Shown: piece by piece, positions 36,801 through 39,800 of the stretch
Numbering within the stretch: position 1 is the first letter of the stretch
Layout: each line of letters opens with the position of its first letter
Assembly (NCBI RefSeq): GCF_000026545.1
Contig: NC_011601.1
Strand: one strand, 5' to 3'
Length of the DNA: 64,000 nt
DNA from: Escherichia coli O127:H6 str. E2348/69
GTDB taxonomy: Bacteria; Pseudomonadota; Gammaproteobacteria; Enterobacterales; Enterobacteriaceae
Made by a program: the position numbers

Positions 36801-39800
36801 TATCAGGGGGGCATTATCGTTGCTTCGGACAGCACTGGAGGTTAAAGTAAATAGAAAAAATATAAAGTATGGCTCGTTGTTTTATTGGCTTGACCATGTA
36901 AAAGCTCATCAGGATGCATTTATTGAATCAATACCACTTATTGAACCTGTATATAAGGAGGGTGAAATACAGTATGATGCGAACAATTTTACCCTGATGC
37001 GTGTTATTAAGATGTATAATTGTATGCTTGAAAAGATCAGTACGAAACCATATATAGCTCCCCCATATATTACAGGTTTGCTTGATGACGTAGAGAAAGT
37101 ACTGGATAAGATAAATATTCTGATAGATAAAGAGTATGTTTATGATGGTAAGACACTGGCTGAAGTCATTATGGAGAACAAAGTATTATCCAGTCGCAAG
37201 CGTAAAGATACTATGATAGGGCTTTTCACAGGCAGTAAGAAATATACTTTACTGCAATGTGTTGAGAAGCTTGGTGTATTAGTTCACTACGTGAAATCAC
37301 CGGTCGATGAAATTAAAAATGTGATGATGTTGTATGGCGATAAGGCCGAAAACAGGAACAGACGCAGAATGATATATGATGCGTTAACCATTATTTGTGA
37401 GGATGATAACAGGGCTAAACACCCTGATCTGTCGTGAACTCATCTGAGTTTGTTTTGAGTCAATAATCTTTATATCCCCCTGCTAATTTTGCTAACCATT
37501 AGCAAAATTAGCAGGGGGATTATCTATGTCTGGCAAGAGAAAATTCTATAATAGTATGATTTCTTTGTTTATTTTGTTTTTCAATTAGAATGGTGTGTTT
37601 TTGTGATCTATGTCTAATTGTTTTGTATTCTTAGCGCCATCCCATTCATGGGCAGATGTACATACCGCCCCTATTAGATTGATGGGTTGCATGTTCATTG
37701 TATCTGTAAAATATGCCAGTTTTGACATTAATACATAATCTGTAATTCGGTGTAAGCTCTTGTCTGGTGAATTATGTTGCGTATTCCGCTCTATTCGATC
37801 ACGGATTGGGCCAAATCATGATCGATTCGAATGCCAAACTGCGAACGATTCAGATGCCATTTTGCATTATGTTAGTGGCTTATTTTTCTTGTTCTTTTTT
37901 ACAGGTTATGTAAGTGTGATTATCCTGATTGCTGGTCACTCATTATATACTGAGTCGACAAAACAAATGAGTATTACTGAAGTTTTTATACAGTGTTCAT
38001 CTGTCTGGTCAGGTTAGTTAGTTCCGGGAGAATCACATTTATTTCATATACCATGAATAATTAAGGTTAATTAGTATTATTAGTGGGAGTTATGGTATTG
38101 TGTGTCTGTGCCGTATTGTTTGTGTGTTTGTTGTATAACTTATCTCTTTACGTGGTAATGTCACTCCTCTTTATGCTAAGTATTCTGTATGTGTGTAATG
38201 CATATATCTCCATACACTACGCAGTGAAGCATATGGGGGAAGCTGTATGGTGAATTATGTGTGTAATGTTGTCCTGTACGTGCTTAACACTGGTTACGTA
38301 TCGGAACACTATTAGAGCGTGTTATGACTCCGTTACAGTTTATAGGTATAGGTAAATATGATCTTTTCTGTATGGAACAATCTTCTTATGGTGTGTGGGT
38401 ATGTTCTGTATACCATTATTCTTTTATGCTACTGATTAAATACCCGTGGTCTCTCTCGGCTTTACTTAATGGTTCGACAATATTAATAGCGATGTAGCCT
38501 GTAGCTAGCCGATACTGAGTTTTGTGAATGTCAGATTACTTCCTGTAAAGAATTTAGTGGTGCTTCCTGAAACTCAATTCTATGAGGTGTGTTTTTCCAT
38601 TGTAATTCGTACTGGTTCTCAGTTTAAGAGAGTCTCACTGTATTCTGAAGTATTACCTCATTACAGTAATGCGGTAATACAAAACAGTTTTATCAGGTTG
38701 TCTGTACTGCTGGTTTACTTCCTTTATTAATGCCGTGGTACGGCGTTTCTCTACTCTCAGTATTTACGTAATTCTCTCTTCCTGTGAGTTTTATAAAGTA
38801 AGGACTATAAAATGTATAATGCCAATCCCAATTACAAAATGGATTTCATGATTCTGAAAGACGTGAATGAACACATGGATGGTATGTTTCAACGTTTTTC
38901 TAAACTGTTACCTTTCAGAATTGATTTTGCTTACAGGAAAGACACGCCCAGTTTCGGTCATTCCTGTAAGCACAGTATGTGTATGGAAATATACCGTTTA
39001 CTTTGCGAAACCCAGACGATGTTGGCGGGATATTACTGGGTAATGGAATATACACCAGACAAAGGGCTTCATATTCATTTTATCGGCTATCTGGATGGGC
39101 AACGTCACAAGAACTCTTATCAGATATCCAGGCAACTGGGAGATATCTGGAGGCGGATCACGGAAGGGGGGGGTTACTTTCACCTTTGCCGGGCTAAAGA
39201 CAAATACCCGGTGCGTATCGATCACGTGATGCACTATAGTGATAAGTCCGCGGTAGACAACTTACGTTACGCCCTTAGCTATCTGGCTAAACAGGATCAG
39301 AAAGAACACGGTATTATTCTGGGCCGTAGCAGGCTTCCCGAAAAAAGCAACCGGGGCCGACCACGACATAACTGAATTACGGGGGCTTATGTCCGAACTA
39401 TCGTAAGTTATCGCGTGGATTTGTCGTTAATGCGTAGCTTTGTCCTCAGCGCAGGGGACTATGACACTTCATCTTCTGGGGTGCTACCCCGTGGGGCAGG
39501 TACAGGTAACGCATATAGTTCATAAATCTGACAGTGATGAATTAGCTGCACTGAGGGCAAACATAACTTGAAGCTTATGGGATTGAATGGCGACGTAAAC
39601 CGCAGAGCCCTGTGCAGTGCGTTTCCGTATTATCCACGGATGAGAAAGTTGCGTTATTTTGTCGACTGTTTCGCGGGCGTGATGATGTATGGGCCCTTCG
39701 ATGGGAAAGCAAAAGCAGCGCTAAATCAGGGGACTCGCGGGCCTGCGCTAACAAATGGCAGCCGGGAATAGCTGTAAACTCCGGATAAAATGTGGGGACT

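What the first reader, a model, noticed from the sequence alone, without database searches (positions are those of the whole stretch)
37438..38811. 1.37-kb GT-rich non-coding stretch inside the integrative element, opened by a 21-bp-stem palindrome
Between the 620-aa gene and the YfjJ-like gene there is no ORF of credible length, yet the sequence is structured: a near-perfect palindrome at 37463-37512, repeated GTGTGT/TGTATG-rich blocks, and short direct repeats (GATTCGAATGCCA / GATTCAGATGCCA near 37810-37860). That is unusual for 1.4 kb of E. coli DNA and fits a structured RNA (P4-type immunity RNA), an origin or iteron region, or decayed genes.
Basis: seen in the sequence. Interest (0 to 1): 0.5.

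Follow-up and report, generated by a model that had tools for sequence, protein, structure and literature searches.

The report
Patchwork spacer before island rep gene
The 1.4-kb gene-free stretch is a patchwork of three things: a hairpin that closes the previous gene, an 89-base dead insertion sequence, and the long upstream region of a rolling-circle-type replication gene. The only deeply conserved part of that upstream region is a 23-base AT-rich box, which may be the island's replication origin, the gene's promoter, or both.

Summary
The window is the EPEC E2348/69 chromosome. The stretch 37438-38811 really has no gene: there is no conserved ORF, no protein-family hit, and nothing annotated in RefSeq. 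It is not one feature.

- **37438-38035** belongs to the upstream 620-aa gene. It carries a perfect 22-bp-arm palindrome at 37474-37520, which three alleles keep through compensatory changes.
- **37778-37866** is an 89-bp internally deleted IS21-family (ISSso4) element with TG..CA ends and a 6-bp target duplication. The O104:H4 homologue lacks it. This explains the GATTC..ATGCCA repeats.
- **38036-38811** is the upstream unit of the YfjJ-like gene, which carries HUH-endonuclease (Rep) motifs. A 23-nt box, AATTAAGGTTAATTAGTATTATT (38059-38081), occurs once, on the same strand, 84-1154 nt upstream of every relative examined. This holds even in Gilliamella, where the protein is only 31% identical. 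The flanks cannot be aligned.

The TG-rich block after the box is E. coli-specific and prone to indels.

I found no support for a structured RNA (no Rfam family match, folding z-scores between -1.5 and +0.1, no covariation) or for decayed genes.

Best reading: this is the cis-control and origin region of an island Rep gene. Whether the box is a nick site or a promoter/operator cannot be settled in silico.

The parts
35575..37437 (+). 620-aa gene (RefSeq aa from 35602) with no recognisable family. The left third of the non-coding stretch travels with it.
   Evidence: ORF; RefSeq hypothetical protein. No hit in Pfam, PADLOC, NCBIfam, PHROGs or PDB sequences. Homologues with the same 3' flank occur in O104, B2207, EC581 and Citrobacter.
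37474..37520 (.). Perfect palindrome with 22-nt arms and a 3-nt loop, 37 nt after the stop codon of the 620-aa gene. It has a GC clamp (CCCCC/GGGGG) and no U-tract directly after it.
   Evidence: I1. The same hairpin sits after the homologous gene with changed inner sequence but perfect pairing: Citrobacter CCCTGCTACAGCTGCTAC/GTAGCAGCTGTAGCAGGG and EC581 CTGCTATTGTTGCTAGCC/GGCTAGCAACAATAGCAG. It is absent from rep loci with other upstream genes.
37778..37866 (.). 89-bp non-autonomous remnant of an IS21-family element (ISSso4-like). It consists of 32 bp of one end joined to 57 bp of the other, with TG...CA termini. It is flanked by the 6-bp target-site duplication TTATGT (37772-37777 and 37867-37872).
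   Evidence: 37778-37809 matches L006 1419-1450 at 100%, and 37810-37867 matches L006 4001-4058 at 98%. Those two sites flank istA/istB of ISSso4. The O104 homologue has the uninterrupted site.
38036..38058 (+). Left edge of the rep upstream module. Homology to rep loci that have other upstream genes starts here.
   Evidence: Alignments to EDL933, EC581, strain 48 and nine plasmid-collection records all begin at window 38036-38053.
38059..38081 (+). Box A: AATTAAGGTTAATTAGTATTATT. This is the only part of the stretch conserved beyond Escherichia. It is followed at 38085-38090 by GGGAGT, the local form of a semi-conserved GAAGT box.
   Evidence: There is a single copy in the window. One copy lies on the rep strand upstream of rep in every rep locus scanned, at 84-1154 nt from the ATG. 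It is 23/23 identical in Gilliamella apart from the G/A position, although Rep there is only 31% identical. Diverged forms occur in Limnobaculum, Rouxiella, C. braakii and plasmid pNDM5_LS003.
38082..38440 (+). Distal leader: a TG-repeat-rich, indel-prone block. It includes a degenerate pair of 15-nt direct repeats at 38095-38109 and 38113-38127.
   Evidence: Word enrichment; repeat D6. Segment 38095-38254 is absent from EDL933 and E. albertii. Mean pairwise identity is 0.67, against 0.915 at rep third-codon positions. TG enrichment is absent in other lineages.
38441..38811 (+). Proximal leader, shared at about 85-92% by roughly 1,900 complete E. coli genomes. It contains a 15-nt-arm imperfect palindrome (38650-38680, with invariant half-sites ATTACC...GGTAAT), a small hairpin GCCGT-GGT-ACGGC (38732-38744), and the Shine-Dalgarno sequence AAGGA (38800-38804).
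   Evidence: palindrome I4. Mean identity is 0.885, slightly below rep synonymous sites, so no extra constraint is shown. One compensatory change occurs in the small hairpin (columns 325/333).
38812..39375 (+). rep: a 187-aa YagK/YfjJ ('inovirus Gp2-type') protein with HUH endonuclease motifs and a C-terminal RGRPR AT-hook.
   Evidence: Invariant residues R36, D38, E79, H87-x-H89, W113 and Y157-x-x-K160. PF23343 REP_ORF2-G2P matches 15 of 17 family members. The AlphaFold model has pLDDT 89.6. Top Foldseek hits are the nuclease domains of parvovirus NS1 and AAV Rep, at weak E-values.

Best explanation
The stretch is non-coding DNA assembled from three unrelated pieces.

1. **3' flank of the 620-aa gene.** Its perfect hairpin most likely ends or stabilises that gene's transcript.
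2. **Dead 89-bp IS21-family remnant.** It inserted into that flank in the E2348/69 lineage.
3. **Upstream control unit of the island's rep gene (38036-38811).** This is the functionally interesting part.

*Proposed mechanism (inferred).* Rep is a small HUH endonuclease. I propose that Box A (38059-38081) is its cis site. The AT-hook and nuclease domain would bind the AT-rich box and nick the + strand at or next to TATTATT. The short direct repeats that follow would act as the lineage-specific 'bind' part of a rolling-circle double-strand origin. The same box probably overlaps the rep promoter, so Rep or another island protein would also control rep transcription there.

*Status of the rest.* The 730 nt between the box and the ATG are lineage-specific filler that is transcribed or merely tolerated. 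They are not an RNA gene.

*Shown:* the anatomy, the module boundaries, the IS identity, the HUH motifs, and the conservation and placement of Box A.

*Inferred:* binding, nicking and replication.
For: **Anatomy**
- Palindrome.
- IS remnant.
- Module boundary at 38036.

**Rep is an HUH protein**
- It has motif I (FRIDF), HUH (H87-I-H89), an invariant E79 eight residues before the HUH, and YxxK (Y157-K160).
- PF23343 matches 15 of 17 members.
- Foldseek's best hits are HUH nuclease domains: B19 NS1, AAV5 Rep, and circovirus and geminivirus Reps.
- A 2025 preprint independently calls such island proteins Rep-like rolling-circle initiators.

**Box A tracks rep**
- It is present once per locus, on the same strand, in about 20 loci from Escherichia, Citrobacter, Erwinia, Edaphovirga, Yersinia, Limnobaculum and Gilliamella, while its flanks cannot be aligned.
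- It tracks rep, not alpA or int, whose positions vary.
- Its distance to the ATG varies 14-fold. That fits an origin better than a core promoter.

**Resemblance to known origins**
- The conserved block ends exactly at TATTATT.
- It contains TAGTATT, TAATATT and TATTATT. These are the heptamers 5' of the nick in nanovirus, geminivirus and duck circovirus origins.
- Tandem 12-15-nt arrays begin 8-32 nt after the box in 5 of 8 lineages. L013 has 13 nt x 4.9 copies and L034 has 13 nt x 5.4.
- This matches the nick-plus-bind layout of rolling-circle origins.
- The AT-hook RGRPR is present in all Reps of the Box A subfamily and absent from K-12 YfjJ and YagK, which lack Box A.
Against: - No nicking or replication data exist.
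- No stem-loop consistently encloses the box, whereas CRESS (circular Rep-encoding ssDNA virus) and many plasmid origins place the nick in a hairpin loop.
- The bases after the putative nick are not conserved as AC.
- A -10-like TAnnnT frame at box positions 14-19 is kept in every variant. In pNDM5_LS003 the 3' part reads TATAAT, as a promoter would.
- Box A is always upstream of rep and co-oriented with it, as a promoter must be.
- A small Acinetobacter plasmid with a Gp2-type gene has a separate Rep_3-type initiator, so this family need not be the replicon's initiator.
- In this window the repeats after the box are degenerate.
- In this window the partner primase gene is a pseudogene, so the unit may be a relic here.
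Confidence: 0.45

Rival explanations
1. Box A is only the regulated promoter of rep. A regulator (AlpA-like, Rep itself or another island protein) binds the dyad AATTAA-GG-TTAATT in the spacer. TATTAT or TAGTAT is the -10 element. Transcription starts at the conserved purines of GAAGT. The long T-rich leader is a 5' UTR that holds rep off, through terminators or roadblocks, until the island is induced. No nicking occurs there.
For: - The TAnnnT frame is kept in all box variants, and pNDM5_LS003 has TATAAT.
- The GAAGT box lies 5-10 nt after the box, where a transcription start would fall.
- In Rouxiella the whole unit (box, GAAGTAAAAAC, Shine-Dalgarno hairpin, ATG) fits in 84 nt, like an ordinary promoter plus 5' UTR.
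- The box is always upstream of rep and co-oriented with it.
- There is precedent for a regulator site between -35 and -10 followed by a leader containing terminators: AlpA at PalpB.
- A Shine-Dalgarno-sequestering hairpin in 8 of 10 lineages shows that rep expression is tightly controlled at the RNA level.
Against: - No -35 element and no extended -10 is conserved at any spacing (sequences).
- The promoter scan's only + strand match near the box (hexamers ATCACA and AATAAT, 38032-38061) ends at the start of Box A, and scan matches overall are no more frequent than in shuffled sequence.
- It would require 5' UTRs of 0.6-1.15 kb in at least three unrelated lineages.
- A 23-nt operator identical between Enterobacterales and Gilliamella, beside a protein only 31% identical, is unusual for promoters.
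- Terminator-like hairpins in the E. coli leader are not conserved. The hairpin at 38388-38416 is deleted in two alleles.
Confidence: 0.3
2. The stretch encodes a structured non-coding RNA, such as a P4-type immunity RNA or another large regulatory RNA.
For: - The stretch is long and ORF-free, with strand-asymmetric G+T richness that would allow G-U pairs on the + strand only.
- It contains several local hairpins.
- One compensatory pair occurs in the small hairpin at 38732-38744.
Against: - No Rfam family matches at E <= 1 apart from sub-threshold microRNA-family matches to the palindrome.
- Folding z-scores lie between -1.5 and +0.1 on both strands.
- The covariation term is -0.04 kcal/mol.
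- The proximal leader is no better conserved than synonymous sites, and the distal part is much worse.
- The leader sequence is unrelated between lineages.
Confidence: 0.05
3. Apart from the IS remnant and the gene-end hairpin, the stretch is functionless AT-rich filler or decayed coding sequence. Box A is then a relic.
For: - The distal leader evolves faster than synonymous sites and is full of indels.
- The module is visibly decaying in this strain: the primase is a pseudogene and IS fragments lie downstream.
- E. albertii rep has an in-frame stop.
Against: - Box A is invariant across orders while its flanks are scrambled. That requires purifying selection somewhere in the family.
- No homologous island has a gene in this position.
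- No ORF translation has relatives.
- The E2348 rep ORF is intact, with all invariant residues.
Confidence: 0.1

Closest known systems
Double-strand origin (dso) of rolling-circle plasmids and phages (pT181, phiX174: nick site plus bind site)
   Same: An HUH initiator gene has a short, highly conserved site next to it and, in several lineages, tandem direct repeats beside that site. The conserved site is on the rep-coding strand.
   Different: No nicking has been shown. No hairpin presents the site. The distance to rep reaches 1.1 kb. The Rep is only 187 aa and has an AT-hook. The element is a tRNA-integrating chromosomal island, not a plasmid.
Origin nonanucleotide of CRESS-DNA viruses (TAGTATT*AC, TAATATT*AC, TATTATT*AC)
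   Same: The 3' end of Box A, TA[G/A]TATTATT, contains the same heptamers that lie 5' of the viral nick. Rep has the single-tyrosine YxxK motif typical of those Reps.
   Different: AT or AG follows the heptamer instead of AC. The site is not in a stem-loop. The conserved block is 23 nt long, not 9. The resemblance could be chance in AT-rich DNA; for example, TATTAC alone occurs 41 times in the window.
IS21-family insertion sequences (ISSso4) and their miniature derivatives
   Same: 37778-37866 has both ISSso4 termini, TG..CA ends, the internal repeated end motifs and a 6-bp target duplication.
   Different: The roughly 2.55 kb interior, including istA and istB, is missing. Only this one 89-bp copy was seen, in the E2348/69-type islands, so it is a one-off deletion derivative and not a proven MITE (miniature inverted-repeat transposable element) family.
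Antiterminator-loading promoters (Pseudomonas AlpA at PalpB; lambda Q type)
   Same: A conserved protein-binding sequence would lie between -35 and -10 and be followed by a leader that must be read through. AlpA-family genes sit in all these islands.
   Different: The AlpA binding element GGGACG has no counterpart in Box A. No -35 element is present. The island AlpA proteins are 65-100-aa proteins of the Phage_AlpA family. Nothing here tests antitermination.
Ff filamentous-phage intergenic region upstream of gene II
   Same: A long non-coding region lies directly upstream of a gene annotated 'Gp2-type', and in Ff that region holds the origins (own knowledge; annotation).
   Different: There is no sequence similarity and no packaging or minus-origin hairpins. 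The island Rep is much smaller than Ff gpII. Only 2 relatives were found in 2.9 million viral contigs and only 2 partial, distant matches in the phage collection.

Membership tests
Rolling-circle replication module (HUH Rep + dso) | Initiator with HUH metal-binding motif and catalytic tyrosine (motifs I, II, III) | tested here: met
   FRIDF, H87-I-H89 and Y157-L-A-K160, plus E79, are invariant in 17 homologues down to 17% identity. PF23343 matches 15 of 17.
Rolling-circle replication module (HUH Rep + dso) | HUH-nuclease fold of the initiator | tested here: inconclusive
Rolling-circle replication module (HUH Rep + dso) | Conserved cis site adjacent to rep | tested here: met
   Box A is present once per locus, on the same strand, in about 20 loci from several genera. 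nhmmer E-values range from 1e-8 to 3e-5.
Rolling-circle replication module (HUH Rep + dso) | Nick site presented in the loop of a conserved hairpin or cruciform | tested here: not met
   DNA folds of 16 instances show no common enclosing stem. The internal dyad AATTAA/TTAATT is not kept in variants.
Rolling-circle replication module (HUH Rep + dso) | Rep-binding direct repeats (bind locus or iterons) next to the nick site | tested here: inconclusive
   Tandem arrays of 12-15 nt follow the box in 5 of 8 lineages. None is detected in this window, pNDM5_LS003 or Limnobaculum. The window has only two 15-nt copies at 87% identity (D6).
Rolling-circle replication module (HUH Rep + dso) | Site-specific nicking, covalent Rep-DNA adduct, ssDNA intermediate | not testable with these tools
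   This needs biochemistry or replication assays.
P4-type immunity RNA / structured ncRNA | Match to a curated RNA family, or folding and covariation signal | tested here: not met
   No Rfam family reaches threshold. Folding z-scores are -1.35, -1.53, +0.12 and -0.12. The covariation term is -0.04.
IS21 family insertion sequence | Terminal inverted repeats ending TG...CA with internal repeated end motifs, and a 4-8-bp target duplication | tested here: met
   Both ISSso4 ends match at 98-100%. The duplication TTATGT flanks the element, and O104 has the empty site.
IS21 family insertion sequence | istA transposase and istB helper genes | tested here: not met
   Only 89 bp remain, so this is a non-autonomous remnant.
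Intrinsic (Rho-independent) terminator | GC-rich hairpin immediately followed by a U-tract | tested here: inconclusive
   The hairpin at 37474-37520 is strong and kept by compensatory changes. The tail is TTATCTATGT. The consensus scan accepts it, but it has no run of T, and Citrobacter has none either.
Decayed protein-coding genes | Intact homologous gene at the same place in related islands, or residual similarity of ORF translations | tested here: not met
   Gaps of 0.5-1.4 kb occur in all related islands. There are no PHROG hits and no ORF shared by 7 alleles.

The most novel reading that the evidence does not exclude
Box A would be the nick-containing origin of a previously uncharacterised family of small HUH Rep proteins: the YagK/YfjJ or 'inovirus Gp2-type' proteins with a C-terminal AT-hook. 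These proteins are core genes of tRNA-integrating genomic islands in Enterobacterales and Orbales, including virulence islands of EPEC, EHEC and O104:H4. After excision, these islands would replicate, or be mobilised, by a rolling-circle mechanism started at this 23-nt site. The lineage-specific 12-15-nt repeats next to it would set Rep specificity.
Probability: 0.35. Interest if true: 0.7.

Novelty: new member of a known kind. Interest (0 to 1): 0.45.

Why it matters
More than a third of complete E. coli genomes carry part of this unit. It sits in islands that deliver virulence effectors, tellurite resistance and phage-defence systems. These islands are treated as passive cargo that only integrates and excises. 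Their YfjJ-like gene is still listed as uncharacterised in K-12.

A defined 23-nt candidate cis site, together with an intact 187-aa HUH protein, turns the question "do these islands replicate or transfer on their own?" into a simple nicking and copy-number experiment.

It also warns annotators that long gene-free gaps in such islands can be patchworks (gene-end hairpin, IS remnant, rep leader) and need not be RNA genes.

Tried and rejected
- **Rfam scan of 30-45 kb at E <= 1:** nothing relevant.
- **RNA folding of four segments and RNAalifold on 8 alleles:** no signal.
- **Protein-family searches of the six longest ORFs and of the 620-aa neighbour:** nothing.
- **A diverged internal duplication** suggested by the repeat pairs D2, D4 and D3: the local alignment score of 29 lies within the shuffle range, which reaches 32. 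Rejected.
- **A hairpin enclosing Box A:** seen in some lineages but not general.
- **A second copy of Box A as a termination site:** none in the 64-kb window and none in any locus.
- **TATTAC in the -150 palindrome as a second nick site:** the hexamer occurs 41 times in the window, so it carries no information.
- **Box A matches in small gokushovirus-like contigs:** they lie on the strand opposite to the viral genes and at a gene boundary. Judged chance.
- **GAAGT/CTTCC as dispersed iterons:** enrichment is inconsistent. The recurring CTTCC near -35 turned out to be the anti-Shine-Dalgarno arm of a hairpin.
- **Searching viral contigs for more Rep loci:** only 2 found.
- **Literature search for the box sequence:** no paper holds it.
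- **Counting Box A in E. coli by megablast with a 65-nt query:** this undercounts (367 genomes), because it needs an exact 28-mer.
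Full report
**Where we are.** The 1,374-bp query is 100% identical to the chromosome of EPEC E2348/69. It lies in an integrative island next to phoH. In window coordinates the gene order is:
- a tyrosine integrase (32326-33543, +);
- a DUF3987 protein and an AlpA-type HTH protein (both on the - strand);
- a 620-aa hypothetical protein (35575-37437, +);
- the gap;
- a 187-aa YagK/YfjJ-domain ('inovirus Gp2-type') protein (38812-39375, +);
- a frameshifted archaeo-eukaryotic-type primase fragment, then IS fragments;
- the lifA/efa1-like toxin, nleE and nleB.

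**Checking the observation.**
- The gap has no ORF longer than 85 aa.
- RefSeq annotates nothing there in any of the 61 genomes that carry the full stretch.
- The ORF translations hit no PHROG family, and none of them is kept in seven alleles.
- The + strand is T-rich (0.39) with G > C (G+T 0.59) over the whole gap.
- GTGTGT and TGTATG words are enriched only in 38082-38440 (z = 5-8).
- The palindrome is real but lies at 37474-37520. It has 22-nt arms, perfect pairing and a 3-nt loop.
- The two 13-mers GATTCGAATGCCA and GATTCAGATGCCA are real.

**The direct repeats are an insertion-sequence remnant.** About 60 nt around 37810-37870 match hundreds of places in E. coli chromosomes and plasmids, up to 44 per genome. 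In three such places the match is the outer end of an IS21-family element, ISSso4, just upstream of istA.
- Window 37778-37809 is identical to the opposite end of that IS.
- Window 37810-37867 is 98% identical to the istA-side end.
- The two ends are fused with nothing between them.
- The 89-bp element starts with TG and ends with CA, and TTATGT flanks it on both sides.
- The homologous O104:H4 island has the uninterrupted target, GAATTCTGTTAGTAG.

This piece is therefore a dead, internally deleted IS.

**The gap is two modules.** Alignments to islands with other genes upstream of the Gp2-type gene (EDL933, EC581, strain 48, nine records of the plasmid collection) all start at window 38036-38053 and run to the ATG. 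Only islands that also have the 620-aa gene (O104:H4, B2207) share 37438-38035. So 37438-38035 belongs to the 620-aa gene and 38036-38811 belongs to the Gp2-type gene.

**The palindrome.** It follows the stop codon of the 620-aa gene by 37 nt. The homologous gene has its own version in two other alleles:
- E. coli: CCCTGCTA-ATTT-TGCTAA / TTAGCA-AAAT-TAGCAGGG
- Citrobacter (627 aa): CCCTGCTA-CAGC-TGCTAC / GTAGCA-GCTG-TAGCAGGG
- EC581 (69% identical C-terminal fragment): CTGCTATTGTTGCTAGCC / GGCTAGCAACAATAGCAG

Each version pairs perfectly. Five or more compensated positions argue for selection on the hairpin itself. It is absent from rep loci with other upstream genes, so it is a feature of the 620-aa gene. 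No run of T follows it. I read it as a transcript-end hairpin acting as a terminator or 3' stabiliser, but a protein-binding or cruciform role is not excluded.

**The Gp2-type protein is an HUH endonuclease.** An alignment of 17 homologues down to 17% identity keeps R36 and D38 (FRIDF), E79, H87-x-H89, W113 and Y157-x-x-K160. This is the classic motif I, HUH and YxxK set. Members of the close subfamily end in RGRPR, an AT-hook.
- Pfam PF23343 (replication-associated protein ORF2/G2P) matches 15 of 17 members at E <= 0.001, and the window protein at E = 0.002.
- A confident AlphaFold model (pLDDT 89.6) finds the nuclease domains of parvovirus B19 NS1, AAV Rep, circovirus and geminivirus Reps and a RAYT (REP-associated tyrosine transposase) among its best Foldseek matches. 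E-values are only 3e-3 to 5e-2.
- Another study lists the inovirus Gp2-like protein among the likely core genes of a widespread island class.

Neither study, nor any paper holding the sequence, describes a cis site.

**Box A.** Comparing the upstream regions of relatives from other genera left one alignable island: AATTAAGGTTAATTA[G/A]TATTATT, at window 38059-38081.
- It occurs once in the 64-kb window.
- It occurs once per rep locus, always on the rep strand. Loci include E. coli O157, O104, B2207, EC581 and strain 48, E. albertii, Citrobacter, Erwinia, Edaphovirga, Yersinia intermedia, three Gilliamella species and two metagenomic contigs.
- I scanned 100,044 species genomes for AATNNAGGTTANTTANTATTATT. 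Of the eight hits that carry the full box, six have a rep gene just downstream, one sits at a contig end, and one (Pseudoalteromonas) has no rep.
- In Gilliamella the Rep is 31% identical to the E. coli one and the rep genes of two Gilliamella species are 77% identical in DNA, yet the box is identical.
- More distant Reps have recognisable variants: AATTTGGGTTAATTAATGTTATT, AATTTAGGTTTTTTAACATTGTT, AATAAGGTTATTACTGTTATTAT and AATTTAGGTTTATTACTATAATT.
- The box lies 84 to 1,154 nt from the ATG.
- A semi-conserved GAAGT follows it after about 5 nt.

**What follows the box.** In E. coli the next 200-450 nt are the TG-rich part.
- This part is riddled with indels. For example, EDL933 and E. albertii lack 38095-38254.
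- Its mean pairwise identity is 0.67, against 0.915 at third-codon positions of rep.
- The TG enrichment is missing in other lineages.
- The last 360 nt before the ATG are much better kept (0.885), but not better than synonymous sites. Purifying selection on them is therefore not demonstrated.
- They have no significant folding energy and no covariation.
- Leaders of different lineages are unrelated in sequence. Long ones are T-rich and short ones A-rich.
- Right after the box, several lineages have short tandem arrays: 13 nt x 4.9 (L013), 13 nt x 5.4 (L034), 13 nt x 2.1 (O104:H4), 12 nt x 2 (strain 48) and 15 nt x 2.1 (Citrobacter).
- No array is detected in E2348/69, pNDM5_LS003 or Limnobaculum. 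In the window there are only two 15-nt copies at 87% identity.

**Near the start codon.** Eight of ten lineages have a hairpin whose 3' arm contains the Shine-Dalgarno sequence (z = -2.5 to -6.4). It is built from different sequences in each lineage. It is weak in E. coli (z = -0.6). A short box, GTAAAAATTAC, precedes it. So rep translation is normally held down. This is an RNA-level feature, but it is small and local, not a 1.4-kb RNA.

**Mechanism.**

*Origin reading.* Rolling-circle initiators act on an origin made of a nick site and a bind site.
- Box A ends in TA[G/A]TATTATT. This contains the heptamers found 5' of the nick in nanovirus (TAGTATT*AC), geminivirus (TAATATT*AC) and duck circovirus (TATTATT*AC) origins.
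- Conservation stops exactly at TATTATT.
- The box is 83% A+T, a good substrate for an AT-hook and for supercoil-driven melting.
- Lineage-specific repeats sit beside it.
- It follows rep and not alpA or int.
- Its distance to the ATG is free.

*Promoter reading.*
- A TAnnnT frame is kept in every variant, and one variant reads TATAAT.
- GAAGT lies where a transcription start would fall.
- The box is always upstream of rep and co-oriented with it.
- No hairpin presents it.
- Regulator sites inside promoter spacers, followed by leaders that must be read through, are known.
- Against this reading, no -35 or extended -10 element is conserved.

*My position.* The two roles often overlap in Rep systems. 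I give 0.45 to 'Rep cis site, meaning an origin that probably also overlaps the rep promoter', 0.30 to 'promoter/operator only', 0.05 to a structured RNA, and 0.10 to functionless filler.

*Caveats.* In E2348/69 the partner primase is a pseudogene, so the unit may no longer work in this strain. A small Acinetobacter plasmid carries a Gp2-type gene beside a conventional initiator. The family may therefore serve mobilisation or another DNA-processing role instead of replication.

**Verdict.** It is a 23-nt box conserved across bacterial orders next to an uncharacterised HUH gene that is common in E. coli islands.

Noticed in passing
window 30613-30806 (-): Full-length Rfam match to Ysr251 (188.7 bits against a gathering score of 100), just upstream of the island integrase. 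The O104:H4 homologue annotates an RtT sRNA at the same relative place.
   Followed up: no
window 35575-37437 (+): The 620-aa protein has no hit in Pfam, PADLOC, NCBIfam, PHROGs or PDB sequences. It is nevertheless conserved, together with its 3' palindrome, in E. coli and Citrobacter islands between alpA and rep.
   Followed up: partly
window 39515-40390 (from L001 17078-17953): The primase (archaeo-eukaryotic type) gene that follows rep intact in O104:H4 (786 aa) is a frameshifted fragment in E2348/69, followed by an IS 'integrase core' fragment. The replication module is decaying in this strain.
   Followed up: no
L013 5951-6003, L009 5951-6003, L011, L039, L040, L041, L042, L022 (regions just before the rep ATG): A hairpin that buries the Shine-Dalgarno sequence of rep is built from different sequences in 8 of 10 lineages (z = -2.5 to -6.4). 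It is weak in the E. coli long-leader type (window 38762-38814, z = -0.6) and in pNDM5_LS003.
   Followed up: partly
about 45-55 nt before the rep ATG in L009, L011, L013, L025, L034, L039, L040, L041: A second short conserved box, (G)TAAAAATTAC, lies about 10 nt upstream of the Shine-Dalgarno hairpin. In Rouxiella it merges with the GAAGT box that follows Box A. This suggests that the long leaders arose by insertions between the two boxes.
   Followed up: partly
L004 6476-6499 and L005 5118-5141 (K-12 yfjJ and yagK upstream regions): The two K-12 paralogues lack Box A and the AT-hook. They share GATAGGTA[A/T]TATATA 50-170 nt upstream of their start codons, which may be the equivalent box of that subfamily.
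   Followed up: no
L038 7206-7228 (-), Pseudoalteromonas peptidolytica: A perfect 23/23 copy of Box A lies in an intergenic region with no rep gene nearby. It is either an orphan relic or chance.
   Followed up: partly
L015 (E. albertii), rep at 5313-4753 (-): This rep copy has an in-frame stop codon (…CM*IYRLL…), although its Box A and leader are intact.
   Followed up: no
L047 1396-2991 (E. coli IncI plasmid pNDM5_LS003): A conjugative plasmid carries the same layout: a YfjI-family gene, a 1.6-kb gene-free gap containing a Box A variant that ends in TATAAT, a Gp2-type gene and alpA.
   Followed up: partly
window 38650-38680: An imperfect palindrome, GTATTACCTCATTAC-A-GTAATGCGGTAATAC, lies 130-160 nt before the rep ATG. 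The outer half-sites ATTACC and GGTAAT are invariant in 8 alleles, while the inner pairing is not maintained. It looks like a binding site for a dimeric protein.
   Followed up: partly
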